A stretch of 64,000 nt of DNA from Podarcis gaigeae (taxonomy: Eukaryota). Position 1 is the first letter of the stretch. Every line of letters begins with the position of its first letter. The stretch is from the NCBI GenBank assembly GCA_964106915.2, contig OZ066921.1; one strand, given 5' to 3'. The position numbers were made by a program, and so were the translations under genes. Shown in pieces: positions 6,301 through 59,600 of this stretch. The notes under the pieces are model-generated. The model was not told the origin of the DNA and did not search any database. It saw only the letters and a program-made list of their open reading frames with translations.

Positions 6301-8597
6301 AGATTCAGGTAGGTCCTCCAGTTCCTCTAAAGCTCGCCTTGAGGCCGGGCGGTCAAAGACAAAGCACTTGCGGCTGGGGAAATACTGGCGTATGCATTTC
6401 TTGGCAAGGTCCAACTTCTCTGGGTTGTCTAAGAGAGAGAGAATCACAGATAAGGTTATTATCGTTGCTGTTGCTATTATTTTGTGCCCCCTTGGCTCGG
6501 CCCCCTGTGAGGGGGAACATCCCACACCGTCCTAAATCCGGCACTCATCCAGGCTAGGATCCCTCCGACTCTCAATACCTTTCTTCCTCTTCAGGGCATT
6601 CTCCAGATATTCGTCTTCAGTGATAGGTTTCCCATTCAGTTTCAGCAGTAACGAAAAGTCACGCACAGCCCAGACGAAAGCCGGGAAGAACCTAAGAAAG
6701 TCACTCGAATCTTCCTCTTCACCCTCAGAGTCCTTTGCAGGTGTGCTCTTCACCTTAATGCGCTTAGTCAGCTCTGTCACATACCTGGGATCACACTAAG
6801 GAAATTACGATGCCTCTTCCACTTCACAGGGCAGTAATCTCTCAAATACCCCTCACCTTTCCTCCTCTATCCCTCCTCACTATTCCTAAGGCCCTTATTA
6901 GAAATGTCACCCAGTTAGATAAACCTTGCTTCTAGATAAAAACAGTAGTTCCAAATCAAAAAGCACAATTGCTTTGTTTTCAGATGATGTATGCATGCAA
7001 CATAGCAGACACAGTACTAGAAAAGGCATTCCTTCTGTGTGTGTGAGAGAAGGCAGAATGACTCTTTTAAGAAGGACTTGCATTTAAATGAATTAACAGT
7101 TTTTTGCTGCCTCATTGGAGAGGTGTCTTTTTTAGTGCTGTTTCCCTCCCAAAGAAATCTAACCAGCTAACTGATTAAAAATTGCTGTCTTATTTATTAT
7201 CACAGTTTCGTTCATCTTCGTTTGAATTTGTCCATTAGTGTGCTTCCTGGAAACCAGTGCGGTGTCCCCACTAACTGTGACCTACATTGCACCATCCAGT
7301 ATCGTGAAAATAAATGTATGTACAAAGAGGCATTTCCCAGCGTGCACACACAGCTAGATTGCTACCGAAAGCATCTACACACCATCTATTCTGACTGGAA
7401 AGCAGGAAAACTGGCAGTGAACTGCCTGACACCATTTGTACAAAGGATACTGCAGTTTCTCCAGAGCATATTGGTCAATGGTGCCCATGCTGTTGTATAC
7501 AAAGGTGCTGCTTAACAGAATGGACAAGGCAAAAATCCAGGAGTCATTCGCAGTATTGCTCTGTAGGATGGGATGTAAGTAATTAGTGCAGAATCCTGTT
7601 ACACACTTGATCTGCACCTAGGCTGCATCCCTACACACAGTAAAGAACTCAACCTGGTTGATCCCTTTCTGCTCGCACTATCTCACCTTTGGATTACTCC
7701 TATGAGCATCCTTCCTCATCTGAGAGCTTTTAAAGTGCTCCTGATTAGCCTTGTTCTCCTGTTGTATAGTTGTTGTTAATTAAGATTTATATACCACCCT
7801 TCATCACAAGATCTCTGGGTAAAAGGTAAAAACAAAAGTAAATAGTTAAAGAAAAGAAAACAATACCCCCCCCAAAAAACACTTTAAAAGGCTGTAGAAT
7901 ATTAATCAGCCAAAGCCTAGTTGAAAAGGAATGTTTTTGCCTGGCGCCAATGAAGGCGTGAGACACAAAAGGCAATCCCTACCTAGAGATATCAGAGATT
8001 GAACCTAGGACCTTCTGAATGCAAGGCAGCTGCCCTACCACTAAGCTATGGCCCTTCCCCCATGCAATAGCTGCTCTGTGTCTCCAACTTACCTTCTCCA
8101 CATCGCCCAGCCCCTCCGTGTCCAAAAGCACCAAGGTGTGGCCAGGCTTTTTGGGGTGAGGAAGGCACCACATCCAGATGCCCATGGTTTGTGCTTGTAT
8201 TGTGGCCCCCAGACAGAAGCCTATAGGGATCAAATGAGACCGGAATAAGGGAATCAGGTACGAGGGGATCAGCAGTAACCTCAGAATATGGTCCTCTTAG
8301 TGTGGAATTCTCAGATATCTGAAAAAGCGGTTACCTAAATGAAGTAACATCTGAATGTACCTTGCTGGCCCCATCCAGCCCAAAGTCTTTACCCAGCAAA
8401 CCTATTCCTTGTGCAGACTCACCTTTCTTCTTTCCTGCCAGCTTGTTCATGAGGTAGGATTTGCCTGTGCGGTACAGTCCCACGATGGCCACCACAACCA
8501 CTGGCTGCTGGATGCTCTGCAAGATCTTCAGGGCTTCCTGGTTGACCCGCAGCTGTTCACTGGGGTTGTTCTCGATCAGGCACATTGGCTCTTCCAT
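819..8597 (-). CDS. Guanylate-binding protein (GBP family, interferon-inducible large GTPase), complete, 589 aa; orthologue number not assignable
   Basis: Coding exons: 8597-8423, 8220-8093, 7560-7451, 6784-6579, 6428-6195, 5768-5488, 4433-4221, 3013-2911, 2119-1926, 944-819. They total 1770 nt, all phases are compatible, and boundaries are GT-AG. Motifs: P-loop GLYRTGKS, G2 Thr (QTMGIWMW), G3 DTEG, GBP-type G4 VRDF, coiled-coil tail, and C-terminal SGCVIL* CaaX. There is an in-frame stop upstream of the ATG. Confidence 0.96.
1585..1850 (+). mobile_element. tRNA-derived CORE-type SINE (Squam3-like)
   Basis: A box TGGTGTAGTGG, B box GGTTCG, CORE-like GCTGGGTGACCTTGGGCCAGTCAC and a (CCT/CTT)n tail. 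A near-identical copy lies at 47651-47890. Confidence 0.8.
3293..3334. repeat. (TC)n microsatellite
   Basis: Direct inspection; it lies inside a degenerate SINE fragment. Confidence 0.95.
6785..7450 (-). other. U12-type (minor spliceosome) GT-AG intron in the GBP gene
   Basis: The 5' splice site is GTATCCTTTG (U12 consensus RTATCCTT). A branch-site-like TTCCTTAGT lies about 10 nt before the AG, with no polypyrimidine tract. Confidence 0.85.
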
Positions 8598-51600: not shown

Positions 51601-53698
51601 TCTCTCGTTGCCACAACCTCTTTATGTTGCAAGGCTTATAGTTGCATCCTTATTCCTTTACTTCCAGCCTACTCACCTTGTTGTCGGATTCATCCCCCAA
51701 GGAACCCTCGCTGTCGCTGTCCGTCACTCGTTCCTTGCATTTGAGGTCAACATCAGCAGGGTTGAACCCATCCTCAGCTGTAAGAGGGCAGAAGCCTGAG
51801 TCAGCAAGGCACCTGACCACCTCCAAACATCCCCCACTCCCTCTCCAAAACTCTCCTGGAGAGGCAGAGAGATAGGATTACTGCAAATCTGCAAATTCAC
51901 TTACTGCAAGTGCAGGCAAAATGCAGAGCGTTTATTTCTAATTTTTTGCAGTGTGTGTTAGGTCGCTGGCCCCCTGAAGAGATCTAAATTAGGGGTGCTC
52001 TGGGTGCAAAAGGGAGCTAAGTAATCAGAGGAAAAGAAGGTGCTGGTAATGGGCCAATAACCAGAGCACAACAAAACACTGCGCAGGACAGAAAACGAGA
52101 GGCAGAAATGTCCATCTCTTTACCTACCCGCAGCCCAGCTTTGAAGCAGAGCAATCTGGCTTCTGGTGTTCAGAGAATCTTGTTCAGTAAATAATCAAGA
52201 TTGCATTTCAATGCAGATTAAAAAGGGGGTAAAGGGGACCCCTGACCATTAGGTCCAGTCGTGGCTAACTCTGGGGTTGCGGCGCTCATCTCGCTTTATT
52301 GGCCGAGGGAGCCGGCCTACAGCTCCGGGTCATGTGGCCAGCATGACTAAGCCGCTTCTGGCAAACCAGAGCAGCGCACAGAAACGCCATTTACCTTCCC
52401 GCCAGAGCGGTACCGATTTATCTACTTGCACTTTGACATGCTTTTGAACTGCTAGGTTGGCAGAAGCAGGGACTGAGCAATGGGAGCTCACCCCGTGGCG
52501 GGGATTCGAACCACCAACCTTCTGACTGGCAATCCTAGGCTCTGTGGTTTGACCCACAGCGCCACCCGCATCCCTTAGTTACCTTTTAATGCCAGTACGC
52601 ACCACTACCACTACGTTCACAATCTAAAAAGCAAGTAGCAACAAGAATGGGACTATCCCACTCCTGTAATAAATCTCTCTTGGGATTAGGAAGACACGTT
52701 ATTCAGAATCAGACCACTGGCCTCATCTGCCTCAATACTGTCTGCAGTAACTGGCTGGCTGATGCTCTCCAGGGTGCCAAGCAGGCGTCTACCTGGAAAT
52801 TCCAATGATTAAGCCTGGGGTATTTTGCATGCAGGTCACTTGGCTCTACCGCCAAGAACATCCAGCCTCAATAAAGCAGCACAGCAAACTGCCTCACTCT
52901 GCATTCTATCCCACATGACGGATTGTGTGCAAGGGAATCAGGACATAGAGAAGCTTGTTTGAGAGCAGCTTATTCCACATTAACTAATGCAGAGTACAAT
53001 GATCTTGTGGTACAGAAAACACCTGTGTTTTTTTAATAAATGAGGAAGTCTGAGCCATTGTGGTTATGGGAGTAAGACTGAAGACTTCAATATGAATTCC
53101 ACGCTCCCCAAGGGGGCGTCATCACTCCTGTGCCCTCACTTTGCATCCCTCCCGCCACCAATATTTTGAGTTTTATCCCTCTTTCTTCCTTCTGTGGTGC
53201 AATTTGGTGATTACAGCAGCTTGCCTAAAGCTACTGTTCGAAAAGAGGTGGCTGCTTCCATCGCTGAATTGAGTTTGTGTCTAGAAGAGGAAATTCCATT
53301 CATTTATTTGAGCTAATAAAATTTGAACGGTTTGGGTAGCGGGGAACATTTGTTTAGCTTACAGTGTAATAGCACAGCTTGTCACTGCAGGTAAAGAACA
53401 GTCGGTGTTGCACTCTGACCGAAGTAAATTAAAGTTCCTCTTTATTGTCAAGAAAAACACGGTGGAATCATAGAATTGTATTGTTCGAAGGGATCCTGAG
53501 GATCATCTAGTACAGGTGTCTGCAACCTTTCAGACAAAAAGAGCCACTTGGACCCGTTTCCGAAGAAAAAAAAAACTGGGAGCCGCAAAACTCGTCATTA
53601 TAAAAATAACTTTTTTGTCACTTTTTTTATTATTTCTTTGTTTAACCCCTCAGAATTACTCCTCCTCATAGAAATAAACGTTAAATTAACAAGTTACC

Positions 53699-53730
<32 letters not shown>

Positions 53731-56558
53731 CTTCACTCCCCTTTCAAAACAGTGACCAGCGTACATGCCCCTTTCAATGCAGTGACCAGCGTACATGCCC
53801 CTTACAATGTAGCGGGCGGGCGGGAAGGTGACGTCGGGACGGTGCGTGACTAACGCCCCCACTGCCCCCATGCGACGTCACAGCCAGTACAGCGCCCGCC
53901 ACAGTGGGGAGTGTCGGGGCGCACAATGCGCCTCCTCCCCTCGCTAGCATCTGCCCCGGAGCCGCAGAAAAGGTGTAAAAGAGCCACATGCGGCTCCGGA
54001 GCCGCGGGTTGCAGACCCCTGATCTAGTAGGAATATGAGATCAAACCTGCAAACCTTGGCGTTATCAGCACCACACTCTAGCCAACTGAGCTATCCAGGC
54101 ATTCAGGACAGTCACACTATTCTGCAATCTGCATAAATCATGCTAACGAGCGCATATATTTACTTGGTTTGCGTATTTTCACTCTGCTTCTCTCCCAGTC
54201 ATGGAAAGGCAGTCCACCAGCCCATCTTTGCAGTCTTAAATGTTAGAAACTTAAGGAATTCTGAAGATGCTAAATCCCAAGTACTAATTTCCCAGTACCA
54301 TTTTCCATGCCCACAAACTACAATCTCAGAATACATAGAGAAAACGGATACCCCCCATCAATAATGGAAGAGTAGCAATTTCTTCATCCTTGCACTACAT
54401 TATCCGTGCAGCAAATCACAAGGTATTTCACAAAAACCTAACAAACCCTTTCTTAAATCCATGGGGGTCACAGCCTTTCCAGTCCCACCCAATCAACTTT
54501 AGCATTGTAGAAGTGAGAGTCAAAGATAACTTAGGGGGCCCAGCTTCTTTGCCTCTACAAGCTCCCAGAAATCGCAGAAAATCCTGCCTCCTTGGTTTCA
54601 CTGAATTTTACCAGATGTAACATCATTTGATAACAGATTAAGTACAAGGTTTGTGTGGCACATGGTAGATTTGCATGAATTTGGGTTTGCAGGACAACAA
54701 ACTGGGCTCCCATCGCCCCAGAAAGCAACTTTTTAAGTCATGCCCTAGAACAAGCTATGTGCGCCTATAACACAGTGCTGAATAACCTTCTAGTCTGCAA
54801 GGGGCAAACTCCTAGCAAGAGTTGGGTAGGTAAGAATATAGGTGCACTGATATTTATGGCACAAGAGCAGCACCAAGGCCATACAAGACCCCACGCTATT
54901 CTTGCTGCAGATGTGAGGGCAACAGTTGGCAGACCAACAAGCCTATTCCAAAACAGTGCAGGTCTTATTGATGAAAATCAGTCCTCCAGCTTTCAACTTA
55001 AATTTAATGCTGAACTATTAGTTCATGACAAAAAAAAATCCTTCCAGTAGCACCTTAAAGACCAACTAAGTTAGTTCTTGGTATGAGCTTTCGTGTGCAT
55101 GCACACTTCTTCAGATACACACGAAAGCTCATACCAACAACTAACTTAGTTGGTCTTTAAGGTGCTACTGGAAGGATTTTTGTTTTGTTTTGACTATGGC
55201 AGACCAACACGGCTACCTATCTATTAGTTCATGGTTTGCATCAAGTTCTTGAAACCACAGCATTTAATTAACGTGTCATCTTCCTCACCCTCAGTATATT
55301 TGCAATGTTCCTCATCCTTTGCTTTAGGAGGGGAGCAGCCATGCAGGAATTTAGGGCAACAAGTTTAAATACTACGAGCTCAGTGTGATTCAGGGATAAG
55401 CGAAAGCGTTGTGCTAGCATTTGGGGCAGGGACTCCTTACCAATGACATCGTCATCACCCTCCTCTTCGCAGATGACCATTCGCTCCTCGTCGCTGGTCA
55501 TGTCCTCGCTGGTTGTGCGCTGAGAACGGGAGGCACGAGAGGGGTGCAGGTGCAAGGAGTGCCTGGGGCCTTCGCCTGGGGTTGCAAATGGGGACCCCGA
55601 AGGGCCCAGCCCCCCGAACTGCCCCTTCCCACTGACGTACAGAGACTGTCCTGAGCACATCTGGAACAGAATAGTGTCATCTGTTAGAGCCTCGCATCTC
55701 CCAGGGCAACAAGGTGATCCTTGATCTGCGACCTGAAGGATTTTGTCAGGTCAGACTTCAGCTGAAAGAAGGAACTGGGTGGCAAAAAAAACAGCTGAAC
55801 CAACAAGGAAGCCCCTGAACTAGTGTAGGCCAGAAAAGGCTATGTGTGGTACCACAATTCCCTTTACAAGCTCCCAAGTCAGGTTACGTGTCTGAGCGAC
55901 ACTGCCTTTGCCTTGCATTCTTGCACTTTTTCTTGTCTGTGTGCACATGTGAGCTGGGTTTGTAGCAAGCAATAATCCCTTCTCCTTCCCAAAGCCTCAA
56001 TTCCCCTGGAACTGATCGGAACCCAGATTCTCCATGACCTCCTACTGCCCCGCCCCTCGCCGCCAGATCCCAAGAGTGTGCCAACATACCTGGGTGAGCT
56101 CCTGCAGCACCTGGCTGTCACGGTCGCTCTCCATCCCATGCACCCCACTGTGGGAGAAGGCCCGGGGGCGCTGTGCGCCAGGCCCAGTCGAGGGCAGGAT
56201 CCGCTCCCCATGGCCGTGGCCGGATCCTACCATGCCTGCCTTGCCCTCTGGCCCCAGCAGCACCTGCATCTCGGAAGGGCCTGGTGGGGAAGCAGAGAGT
56301 GGTAAGACAAGAAGGAGAGAGCCTTAAAGCAAGGGGCGGGGGGCAGGGGGGGGAAGAGAGATATGAAAGGAGCTCACCTCCTGGCACAGCAGCGGTACCC
56401 GTCTCAGACATGCTGCGTTCTCGGGTCTCCTTGGAGCATCCCCCTGGCCCCGAGGGCTTCACATCTGAGCTAGACTTTTTCCGATCTTTGTTACACCACT
56501 TCCAGTCAGGGTGTGCTTTGAAATGGGCTTCCTTCACCTGGTTTTATTTGGGGGGGGG

Positions 56559-56604
<46 letters not shown>

Positions 56605-59600
56605 TTGAGAATAGAGAGAAATGAAGAAAAGATACCTAGGCAACGTACCAGCTACTGAGGGGGGAAAGTGGGAATGGCTGTCGCAGACTCCATGCCGCAA
56701 AAGCTAAAATTCTGTGAAATGGAGATCTGAATCCCATCTAAAATGAGCAAATTATGCATCATTGCTATACACTGGGAAAAGAAACAAAGCAAGGCACCGC
56801 ATCCATGTTCCCTTTAAAACTGCTGCTTCTGAGATTTTACTAGGTTTCACCTACGAATTTTTCAAGCATATCTTGGCAACCTAAAGGCCGGAGACTTGCT
56901 TTTGTAATTACATGAAACTTTTGTAATTACATGAAAGCGGATATTCTTCAGAAACTCAGGTCTGCAACCATACAACCTTGCGTACCTTTTCTGTACTCCT
57001 GAAAAGGTTACATACATACAGCCCTGGCTTTCACCACCAGGCCCTGCTTAACAGCATTACTCTTGGGAGACAGAATGCTGGATGAAAGGAGCCACTGATC
57101 TAAGCCAGGCATGCTAGCTGCACAATGGGAGGCAACAGATAGGACGCCCGACTCGCTCTCTGTGTTACGCTCCCTAGGAGGCTGTACCTGGAAGGCCAGG
57201 TCGTGGTACTTCTGTTTCTCCTTGGGCCCCAGCGCGTACCACCACTCGCCTAGGATCTTGCTGACGGTACGGTTGTCTTGGTTGGGGTGCCGTTGGTGCA
57301 CCAGGGCCCGGTGTCGCTTGCTGAAGATCATGAAAGCATTCATAGGCCGCCGGATGTGATCTTTTTCTCTCTGCAAAGAAAAGGGGTGTGTGGATGCAAA
57401 GAGACCAAAGCCACCACTAAACTTATATTTCACCCAGGGTGAATTCTGAATACTGGTGGAGCATTCCGCAGATGAATGAGGAGAAGGGAGGTTGAGGAAT
57501 ATGAGAAAGAGAAGAGGAGATGACAGGAAAAGATCCCTCACCTTGTTAGGACTGCGCCCATCCTTTTCGGAAGATGAATCTCGGTCTTTGGGCAGAGCGC
57601 TCAATGACTGGGTACGACGCTTGCCTGGCAGCAGTGGGAGTTGCATCTCAGAAGATACAACGGACAGGAACCTACAGAAGGAGGTCCAATTTCACCATCT
57701 TCTCCAAACTATTCCCAGAGCCGCCACCTCGCCCGGGTCTCCTGACATCCTCCTTCAACTTAACCATGCTCCCCATTCCCTCTCTGTTTTAGGGTTCTCT
57801 CCCAACTGCCTCACGCCGCTCCTTCCAGCAGCACATTCCCTGATCCACTGTGCTGCGGTCCCACCTCTGTCGTGGACTTATAGCTTGCGCAAGTTGCCCA
57901 CAGCTATAAAACCGCTGTCTGTCAGGCAGGGTGGGGGAGCTGTGACCTCGCAAGGGTGTTGGAAAGAGAACCGCAACAAAGCACGATGGAGCAGCCCCGG
58001 AAGGCAGAAGAACTCACGCATCGTCGTGATCGCTCTCTGTCTCGCTGTCCAGGCGCGAGTGCCCTGGGACGTCGTCCTCCTGCTGGGCTGGCCCTCCGCT
58101 CCCTCCAGGAGTCGCCGCTGATGGCTGGGAAACTGGAGTCGGGCTGTCAGGGTGCGAAGTGTTTGGCCTCCCTGCTTCGGCCCCCGAAGACACGCCGGGG
58201 AGCTCATGGGCCACGGCAGCTGATTCTGGAGGTTCTGAAATGGAAAGCCTCGGGTGAGAATGAACAGCCATGCGCTCTTGCGGAGGAGGGCAAGGAGTTG
58301 CACGCATGCCCGGTCCTACCTGCTGGCCTGTCCCGTAGCAGGAAGCCTAGGTGGAAATTCTGCACCCGCCCCCTTTCTTCCCCTCGTCCCGCCCTGCACA
58401 CTTGCCTTTGTTCTGATTGGATGTAGACGGGTGGCTGACAGGCTGCTGGCCTTCGGTCGGTTGCACGGAGGAATCGGGCTGGCTGGGAGCCAGGAAGGGC
58501 ACAAGGGAGTGCCATGGGAATACAGCCACAGACCGTGGCTCCACATTTGTCCACACTGGAAGGAACGGGAGAAGAAAGAAAGTGTTGCAACAGTCAGCTC
58601 AGACCAGCAAGTAAAATAAAGGGAATAGGAGACTGGGAGTCGGGACTCCAAGGTTGAATCACAGTCCAAGCCTCCCTTCCTCCAGTTCCCTTTCTCTCTC
58701 ATGCACACCTCTAACAGCCTCATCCCAGTTACAGCTCATACCAAGAACTGACTTAGTTGGTCTTTAAGGTGCTACTGGAAGGAATTTTTTTTGTTTAGCC
58801 TCATCCCAGTTGCGTTTCCGTCCTCAGTCCTAGCAGCCACAATCTGTGCCATGCCTTATCGCTGGCTTCTAGGTCCCTGGGGGTGGGAGAGATTTTCTCC
58901 TTTGCCTGCCAGGAAGCAACACTCCCCCTCCTCCGCCCTTCCCAGCTGGAAGCCAGGCAAAGGAATTTTACAGCTGCAGGAGGGGAAGGGGAGGGAAGGG
59001 GTGAGGGGCCCAGCTCACTCAGACTCCCACGCTTGCTGGGGCAGCCAAGCTACTTGGCTCCATCCCAGCCAGAGGGCTTGAGAGCATCCTCAGGAGCTCA
59101 GGCTGCGTGGGGCAAGGGAAGCCAAACGGCGCCCCAGGGTTGTGCCCTCAGGAGAAGAAGGTCCTCCCCACCTAGGAAGAAGTGTCCATAGACATCAGCA
59201 CTGCCCCCCATTAGAAGCTATTCCTTGAAGGTGGAAGTGATCTGCTTGCACTGGCTCTCCCTCCCATCACTTCCTGCTGCCCCTGTATCAGGCTAAGCAA
59301 GACTTCCTTCTTGGGGTTCCAAGAAAAGGCTATTATTGCGCAGGGGAGAGAGACCTGAGCTGGCTTGCATGTGTTTGCGTACGCGTGTGCACACACAATC
59401 AAATTTGCAACGTCTGTACTTCCTGGTTCTATGGCACCCAAAAAACAAACCGTATATGCAACACCAGTAAGCTGAAAATATTGTGAAAACACCTCTATGG
59501 CACGTGGATCCACAGTGTCCACTACAGCTTAACTAAACCAGTGTGACTAAACCAGAGCCTTGCACCACTGCAACAAACCACATCATGTGTTGTTGTTTTT

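What the first reader, a model, noticed from the sequence alone, without database searches (positions are those of the whole stretch)
55028..55220. Intact minimal hammerhead ribozyme, sense to CIC pre-mRNA, caged inside a 64-bp hairpin
Seen: on the CIC-transcribed strand, intron 8 (about 320-360 nt after the donor) contains a complete hammerhead core: GUAU CUGAAGA A GUGUGC-AU-GCACAC GAAA GC UC|AUAC, with predicted cleavage between 55085 and 55084. An inverted copy of the 3' half is transcribed just before it (63/64 complementary), and the unit is flanked by a 13-bp direct repeat. Known: Penelope-like retroelements carry minimal type I hammerheads whose palindromic stem III favours dimeric cleavage. 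Inference: the inverted arm pairs with the GAAA/cleavage strand and should silence the ribozyme, which may explain why it is tolerated in this gene. The long dsRNA could also be an ADAR or Drosha substrate, giving a potential conditional self-cleavage switch.
Basis: partly seen in the sequence, partly recalled or inferred. Interest (0 to 1): 0.75.

Follow-up and report, generated by a model that had tools for sequence, protein, structure and literature searches.

The report
Twin-primed Penelope stub caging its hammerhead
This is a young, 193-base leftover of a very common jumping gene in an intron of CIC, and its self-cutting RNA motif is predicted to be locked in a hairpin, likely as a routine by-product of how the element inserts rather than as a switch that controls the gene.

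Summary
The anatomy is as described: minimal hammerhead at 55118-55081 (- strand, CIC intron 8), arms 63/64 complementary, 13-bp duplication. Folding puts the ribozyme fold 31 kcal/mol above the hairpin. But it is one of 11,151 exact cores in this genome, the end of a Neptune-type Penelope-like retrotransposon with an intact parent (897 aa, RT + GIY-YIG). 46 of 100 sampled cores carry such an inverted arm, and contigs of three related organisms hold the empty site. The cage is not needed for tolerance: four uncaged cores lie sense in host introns, lone minimal hammerheads are reported inactive, and only about 3% of arms are lost across the cleavage site, so templates were uncut RNA. Sister copies point to both nicked target strands priming on one transcript: tail on one arm only in 33 of 34, arm variants matching in 28 of 28. 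A weak, non-significant trend (uncaged 4 sense:10 antisense; caged 8:8; p 0.28) leaves selection against uncaged copies open. The scan has noted this architecture and mechanism on other genomes.

The parts
55028..55220 (.). Whole 193-bp insertion: two head-to-head 3' stubs of a Penelope-like element
   Evidence: Empty-site contigs join 55014 to 55221 in runs X7, X8, X12; 39 other near-full-length copies at 95-98% among 40 scored
55221..55233 (.). Target-site duplication, copy upstream in the CIC transcript
   Evidence: 13 of 13 identical; single copy at the empty site
55015..55027 (.). Target-site duplication, downstream copy
55118..55220 (+). Arm 1: element-sense on +, so antisense in the CIC pre-mRNA; runs from stem II 3' strand to the end of the tail; this is the cage
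   Evidence: 93.5% to the parent copy over 108 nt; pairs with 55030-55097
55186..55220 (+). About 35-nt tail present on this arm only (between the two inferred reverse-transcription start sites)
   Evidence: Tail on one arm only in 59 of 62 identical-junction copies and 33 of 34 sampled insertions; feature described in PMC8557442 and PMC11167929
55028..55120 (-). Arm 2: element-sense on the CIC strand; starts 1 nt after the parent's predicted transcription start, carries the whole hammerhead, ends in the U-rich tract without tail
   Evidence: 96.7% to the parent over 90 nt; parent has TATA 30 nt before an initiator-like motif
55081..55118 (-). Minimal type I hammerhead: stem I 55118-55115/55084-55081, CUGAAGA 55114-55108, extra A 55107, palindromic stem II 55106-55093, GAAA 55092-55089, palindromic stem III remnant 55089-55086, C17 55085
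   Evidence: 11,151 exact copies of its 34-nt core
55118..55120 (.). 3-nt microhomology at which the two arms are joined
   Evidence: Read from the sequence; the same junction recurs 62 times
55441..55660 (-). CIC exon 8 (short-form count); donor at 55440
   Evidence: AG/GT ends and open frame; gene name from recalled protein likeness

Best explanation
The feature is a young, one-off, head-to-head insertion of two short ends of a Penelope-like retrotransposon, likely made when both nicked target strands primed reverse transcription on the same uncut transcript, and its hammerhead is predicted to be inert in the CIC intron. Shown: the parent has terminal repeats bearing this hammerhead around an RT + GIY-YIG frame; the insertion has a 13-bp duplication and is missing in related organisms; arms within one insertion share variants, only one carries the tail, and junctions vary between copies. 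Inferred: the parent transcript starts just before the hammerhead; the endonuclease nicks both strands 13 nt apart; one 3' end primes in the U-rich tract and copies to the RNA's 5' end, the other primes about 35 nt further 3' (hence the tail); the two cDNA ends anneal over 3 nt and are filled in. Whichever strand is later transcribed folds as a long hairpin, so caging comes free. The intron is spliced out and the stub is likely neutral.
For: Parent L141: 897-aa frame, Pfam RVT_1 E 9e-12 and GIY-YIG E 7.5e-06, hammerhead in both repeats. 11,151 exact cores, reversed-pattern control 0, only 62 with this junction. First 100 listed cores: 46 have an antisense copy of the catalytic 3' half within 600 nt upstream, 34 within 60 nt. 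A two-state variant (49 A, 51 G) matches between arms in 28 of 28 head-to-head pairs under 500 nt apart, P 4e-9 if independent, and in 42 of 45 scorable identical-junction copies. Tail on exactly one arm: 33 of 34 distinct insertions and 59 of 62. In 15 of 29 scorable insertions, and in the CIC copy, each arm holds sequence the other lacks; L043 and L052 have the tail alone as second arm. Arm counts 15,037, 14,669, 14,180, 13,191 for patterns extended 4 nt at a time: the step across the cleavage site loses 3.3%, against 2.4% and 7.0% for its neighbours. Empty site in 3 runs of 3 studies. PMC11167929 (parts 1-2 of 4 read): a lizard element nicks and extends both strands, starts at two sites that bound the tail, uses unprocessed RNA, and its hammerhead does not cut without protein. 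PMC4209133 (parts 1-2 of 4 read): a single minimal motif showed no detectable cleavage.
Against: No intermediate was observed; a hairpin intermediate trimmed on one side by the endonuclease could also give one-sided tails. L020 has a tail on both arms (1 of 30). 3 of 45 identical-junction copies have discordant arms, and two opposed pairs 0.8 and 1.7 kb apart are discordant, so 'one RNA' is not universal; matching arms could also come from two RNAs of one source locus. The sample of 100 cores is the first 6.7 Mb of one contig, with about twice the genome-wide density. Orientation trend (uncaged 4 sense:10 antisense, caged 8:8) runs against full neutrality, though p is 0.28. Inertness is computed, not measured; no RNA data for the locus.
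Confidence: 0.72

Rival explanations
1. Same inert Penelope stub, but the mirror arm comes from fold-back or self-priming (for instance on an antisense template) followed by endonuclease trimming of one end, not from two target-primed starts.
For: PMC3846280 (passages read) interprets head-to-head junction palindromes as self-priming on an antisense template; PMC8557442 (passages) ascribes the tail to endonuclease resolution. Matching arm variants (28 of 28) and the 3-nt junction microhomology fit fold-back equally well.
Against: Plain copying of one arm cannot give arms that each hold private sequence (15 of 29; 50 of 62 with the tail on the shorter arm) or tail-only second arms (L043, L052) without an extra trimming step; both arms end at one of two fixed sites that match the two start sites measured in PMC11167929.
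Confidence: 0.15
2. The cage arises by insertion but is then favoured: the ribozyme can cut host pre-mRNA (as a dimer or helped by the element's protein), so uncaged sense-intronic copies are purged and caged ones, as in CIC, survive.
For: Uncaged cores 4 sense:10 antisense in host introns against 8:8 for caged. Without the arm the core folds within 0.8 kcal/mol of its minimum. PMC11167929 shows protein-assisted cleavage; an intact parent frame exists. Preprint 10.64898/2026.07.22.740005 (abstract, part 1 of 5 and passages) reports fewer retrozymes in Xenopus introns than expected.
Against: Fisher p 0.28 (0.16 with three uncertain calls). Four uncaged sense-intronic cores persist. The sense strand also has a U-rich tract followed by AG, so a splice-signal effect would give the same bias (inference). 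Templates were uncut even in the element's own particle. In 300-nt context uncaged cores rarely form stem I (P 0 to 0.28 in 7 cores).
Confidence: 0.1
3. A domesticated conditional switch: editing or dicing opens the hairpin and the ribozyme then cuts CIC pre-mRNA.
For: A 68-bp near-perfect duplex is a plausible ADAR or Microprocessor substrate in principle (established knowledge); the insertion appears present in four labelled organisms.
Against: Young insertion, absent in 3 relatives that differ by only about 2-3% in the flanks; junction identical to 61 other copies, no adaptive change seen; a lone core has no stem III and no partner core in the window; 31 kcal/mol barrier.
Confidence: 0.03

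Closest known systems
Inverted-pLTR insertion units of endonuclease-bearing Penelope-like elements (PMC8557442 and PMC3846280, passages read)
   Same: Inverted 5'-truncated copy adjacent at the 5' end, 30-40 bp tail at one end only, target-site duplication, TATA plus initiator in the terminal repeat, hammerhead in the repeat; parent with RT and C-terminal GIY-YIG and a CX4CX2C linker as in Neptune/Nematis.
   Different: Extremely short (no coding sequence); junction falls inside the ribozyme so only one strand keeps a whole core; family not matched to a named Repbase entry and not placed on a tree.
Minimal hammerheads of metazoan Penelope-like elements (PMC4209133; review PMC6765202, passages)
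   Same: 4-bp stem I, extra nucleotide before stem II, G10.1-C11.1 pair, palindromic remnant of stem III, dispersed single copies, some pairs 100-700 bp apart on opposite strands.
   Different: Stem II is itself a perfect 14-nt palindrome and forms the intermolecular duplex in the predicted dimer; activity of this variant untested.
PAc, Poseidon element of the green anole (PMC11167929)
   Same: Two start sites bounding the tail, uncut RNA as template, hammerhead at the repeat-frame junction.
   Different: Other clade by linker motif; here the start codon lies about 130 nt after the core start, not inside stem II; that paper does not discuss inverted copies in the parts read (its one use of 'inverted' concerns a blocked oligonucleotide).
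Conserved intronic hammerheads of amniotes, RECK and CTCL (review PMC6155905, passages)
   Same: Type I hammerhead in a host intron.
   Different: Those are conserved across amniote classes and keep tertiary contacts; this one is a recent, repeat-borne, minimal motif missing in close relatives.
Twin priming of LINE-1 (recalled; named in search listing, not read)
   Same: Second target end primes on the same RNA and gives an inverted 5' part joined by microhomology.
   Different: In LINE-1 the two parts do not overlap; here the same 60-100 nt are usually copied twice, giving a hairpin.

Membership tests
Endonuclease-bearing Penelope-like element | Single frame with RT and C-terminal GIY-YIG in a parent copy | tested here: met
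   L141, 897 aa, PF00078 and PF01541 above cut-off
Endonuclease-bearing Penelope-like element | Direct terminal repeats (pLTR) bearing a hammerhead | tested here: met
   Core in both repeats of L141, 3,010 nt apart
Endonuclease-bearing Penelope-like element | Inverted 5'-truncated copy and 30-40 bp tail at one end | tested here: met
Endonuclease-bearing Penelope-like element | Insertion with target-site duplication into an empty site | tested here: met
Neptune clade | CX2-5CxxC linker between RT and endonuclease | tested here: met
   Motif read in the L141 protein; shared with Nematis per PMC8557442
Neptune clade | Placement in the RT tree | not tested
   No reference proteins fetched
Minimal type I hammerhead | Conserved core C3-U4-G5-A6-N7-G8-A9, G12-A13-A14-A15.1, U16.1-H17 with stems I and II | tested here: met
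Minimal type I hammerhead | Match to an Rfam hammerhead model | tested here: not met
   No hit at gathering score or at E up to 10; models may not cover forms without stem III (inference)
Minimal type I hammerhead | Self-cleavage, as dimer or with protein | not testable with these tools
   Indirect only: no excess of copies ending at the site
Non-autonomous element moving as a unit (MITE- or SINE-like) | One fixed structure in most copies | tested here: not met
   62 of 11,151 cores share the junction; tail side and arm variants differ among those 62
Non-LTR retrozyme | Tandem direct repeats each with a hammerhead | tested here: not met
   Single inverted unit at this locus; tandem copies exist elsewhere
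Domesticated intronic hammerhead (RECK type) | Orthologous conservation over distant taxa | tested here: not met
   Empty site in organisms E, F, G

The most novel reading that the evidence does not exclude
Thousands of these minimal hammerheads are a latent, transposon-protein-activated knife in lizard pre-mRNAs: double priming builds a cage into about four in ten insertions, and selection removes uncaged copies from the sense strand of introns while caged ones such as the CIC copy pass.
Probability: 0.1. Interest if true: 0.65.

Novelty: new member of a known kind. Interest (0 to 1): 0.24.

Why it matters
For CIC it likely does not matter. The value is in the family: more than 11,000 near-identical young copies and an intact parent give a dense record of how Penelope-like elements insert, a step still unresolved in the papers read. 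Three cheap genome-wide readouts (one-sided tails, matching arm variants, no pile-up of ends at the cleavage site) favour double priming on uncut RNA and make the model testable with the existing in vitro system. An annotated genome would settle in one pass whether uncaged sense-intronic hammerheads are selected against.

Tried and rejected
Rfam at gathering score and at E up to 10: no hammerhead model; the microRNA hits are far below their gathering scores and reflect the hairpin shape only. RNA evidence: no RNA holder listed; run X15, RNA by guess only, covered parts of the flanks and gave nothing usable on editing, small RNAs or cleavage. A unit that transposes whole: first suggested by 39 near-identical full-length copies, rejected because that search selects for the junction and 62 of 11,151 cores have it. 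A genome-wide count of caged cores by gapped pattern could not be made, so the caged share rests on a sample of 100. Orientation test: 100 regions of 10 kb fetched, 486 exon candidates scored, the top 150 sent to Pfam; 30 copies got a host-gene call, 3 more were uncertain, the rest were dropped; underpowered. Core-less single arms as a control: 10 regions fetched, most turned out to hold a core with one change, 1 informative, so no test. Lunse, Weinberg and Breaker (PMC5785218) is not held; known only through review PMC6765202. Supplements of the papers were not opened; those of PMC11167929 (Fig. S1-S2) may bear on insertion ends.

Full report
Observation. The hammerhead core stands at - strand 55118..55081 with C17 at 55085. 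The arms differ at 1 of 64 positions, 55138, and the unit 55028-55220 is flanked by a perfect 13-bp repeat. The strand folds at -142.9 kcal/mol, z -20.4, with 0 of 200 shuffles as stable. The exon ending at 55441 has proper ends and is the eighth of the short CIC form; the core lies 322-359 nt after its donor and the next exon is near 51,780 (the name CIC and its first exon are recognised from recall). Rfam gives no hammerhead match at gathering score in the window or at E up to 10 in 54900-55350. Stem II folds as 5 bp with a 4-nt loop and is a perfect 14-nt palindrome. Forcing the hammerhead fold costs 31.0 kcal/mol with the arm and 0.8 without it.

What it is. A DNA search of the own genome scored 40 of 1,176 candidates; 39 besides this locus match nearly the whole unit at 95-98%. 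The 34-nt core occurs 11,151 times exactly, the reversed control 0 times; 62 copies share this junction. Following the sequence past the tail led to L141, a copy with direct terminal repeats, each bearing the core, around an uninterrupted 897-aa frame with Pfam RVT_1 (E 9e-12) and GIY-YIG (E 7.5e-06) and a CX4CX2C linker, which PMC8557442 (passages) gives for the Neptune and Nematis clades. No tree was built. In the parent a TATA motif lies 30 nt before the A of an initiator-like motif, 7 nt before the core; such promoters in terminal repeats are described in PMC3846280 (passages). 57 of the 100 sampled cores have their 5' end 1-6 nt before the core, that is, just inside the predicted start. 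The host is likely a lizard, inferred from recalled likeness of its SINEs, from no call.

Age. Contigs of runs X7, X8 and X12 (organisms E, F, G; three studies) join 55014 directly to 55221, keeping one copy of the 13-bp target. Runs X2, X4, X5 and X6 (organisms A-D; one study) have flank contigs that run 24-31 letters into the element at both ends and stop; only one of these eight ends reaches the tool's 31-letter rule for bridging, so presence in A-D is likely rather than shown. Flanks of E-G differ from the window at 15, 17 and 22 of about 825 letters, those of B-D at 13-16 of about 900. The insertion is therefore young.

How common the cage is. Of the first 100 cores listed (6.7 Mb of contig C1, about twice the average density), 46 have an antisense copy of the catalytic 3' half within 600 nt upstream, 34 within 60 nt, and 57 have some inverted stub (head-to-head pairs count twice). 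PMC8557442 describes an adjacent inverted 5'-truncated copy and a 30-40 bp tail at one end as typical of these elements, and PMC4209133 (parts 1-2 of 4) saw motif pairs on opposite strands.

How the cage is made. A variant with two states (49 and 51 of 100 arms) matches between arms in 28 of 28 head-to-head pairs under 500 nt apart, P 4e-9 if independent; two opposed pairs 0.8 and 1.7 kb apart do not match. Among the 62 identical-junction copies 42 of 45 scorable match and 17 could not be scored; the tail is on the antisense arm only in 50, on the hammerhead arm only in 9, on neither in 3. One search lists 36 inverted rows; dropping 2 duplicates (L049, L050) leaves 34, with the tail on one arm in 33, on neither in 1. 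L020, outside these sets, has both tails. Dropping the tail-less row and 4 rows where the walk failed (L047, L150, L153, L160) leaves 29: the tail arm is shorter at its 5' end in 15, longer in 4, equal within 3 nt in 10 (my recount's rows). In those 15, as in CIC, each arm has sequence the other lacks, and in L043 and L052 the second arm is the tail alone. Neither arm is then a plain copy of the other. PMC11167929 (parts 1-2 of 4) found that a lizard element nicks and extends both strands and starts at two sites bounding the tail. Together these suggest double priming on one RNA, or on two RNAs of one source, with the cDNA ends joined at the 3-nt microhomology 55118-55120. PMC3846280 proposed self-priming instead; with an added trimming step it is not excluded. 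Two literature searches listed no paper that I could see applying twin priming to these elements; I read listings only for most hits. The scan's own notes record the same architecture and the same idea on other genomes; I had noted the idea, and their agreement is not independent evidence.

Does the ribozyme cut? Extending an arm pattern 4 nt at a time gave 15,037, 14,669, 14,180 and 13,191 matches. The step across the cleavage site loses 3.3%, its neighbours 2.4% and 7.0%, so few if any copies were made from a cleaved 3' product. This agrees with PMC11167929 (unprocessed RNA is the main substrate, no cleavage without protein, no reads ending at the site) and PMC4209133 (single motif inactive, dimers weak). 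The window has no second core.

Is the cage needed? I fetched 100 regions of 10 kb, scored 486 exon candidates, sent the top 150 to Pfam, one to the PDB, and read the rest by eye. 30 copies got a host-gene call; names are recalled, about half are backed by a Pfam or PDB hit, calls were not blind, 8 of the 30 lie in one MDGA-like gene, and 3 of the caged ones are only partly caged. Uncaged cores: 4 sense, 10 antisense (1 more uncertain). Caged, CIC left out: 8 sense, 8 antisense (2 more uncertain). Fisher p 0.28, or 0.16 with the uncertain ones; binomial p 0.18 for 4 of 14. The four uncaged sense cores (ATL1-like intron 1, L217; MIS18BP1-like 5' intron, L197, with one change in stem I; MDGA-like, L198 and L213) have no antisense core within their 10 kb. 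A U-rich tract followed by AG on the sense strand could cause the same bias (inference).

Comparison and verdict. It works like, and is a member of, the inverted-repeat insertion units of endonuclease-bearing Penelope-like elements. It is not a domesticated intronic hammerhead of the RECK type (review PMC6155905, passages), nor a tandem retrozyme (preprint 10.64898/2026.07.22.740005, part 1 of 5 and passages), nor a unit that moves whole. Editing and small RNAs could not be examined. Novelty: new member of a known kind; interest 0.24, carried by the mechanistic record of the family and the untested orientation bias, not by CIC.

Noticed in passing
window 58733-58796 (+): Second, core-less stub of the same family in CIC intron 1, antisense to the gene, with an apparent 15-bp target duplication and a few bases like the tail end at its other junction.
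   Followed up: partly
window 58405-58404 (-): The donor after CIC exon 2 reads GC, an apparent GC-AG intron that keeps the frame.
   Followed up: no
window 7984-8055 (-): Weak Rfam tRNA match, 31.4 bits against a cut-off of 29; possibly a tRNA-derived SINE head.
   Followed up: no
L141:3503-6196 (G000:C17, about 2 Mb from the window): Parent copy with an uninterrupted 897-aa frame between two hammerhead-bearing repeats; three more loci are open for the 584 codons held.
   Followed up: partly
L061-L080: Short direct tandems that restart exactly at the hammerhead's 5' edge after running 30-250 nt into the reading frame, giving two cores 150-400 nt apart, the likeliest self-cleaving dimers; restart points often show one extra G or T.
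   Followed up: no
L197:7800-8021 (-): An uncaged core followed within 100 nt by an older copy with a change in its GAAA box, sense in the 5' intron of a MIS18BP1-like gene.
   Followed up: partly
L243:4960-5070: Caged copy sense in an intron of a glycogen phosphorylase gene, about 430 nt after a donor, the same setting as in CIC.
   Followed up: partly
window 55093-55106 (-): Stem II is a perfect 14-nt palindrome, so two cores are predicted to pair through stem II, not only stem III.
   Followed up: partly
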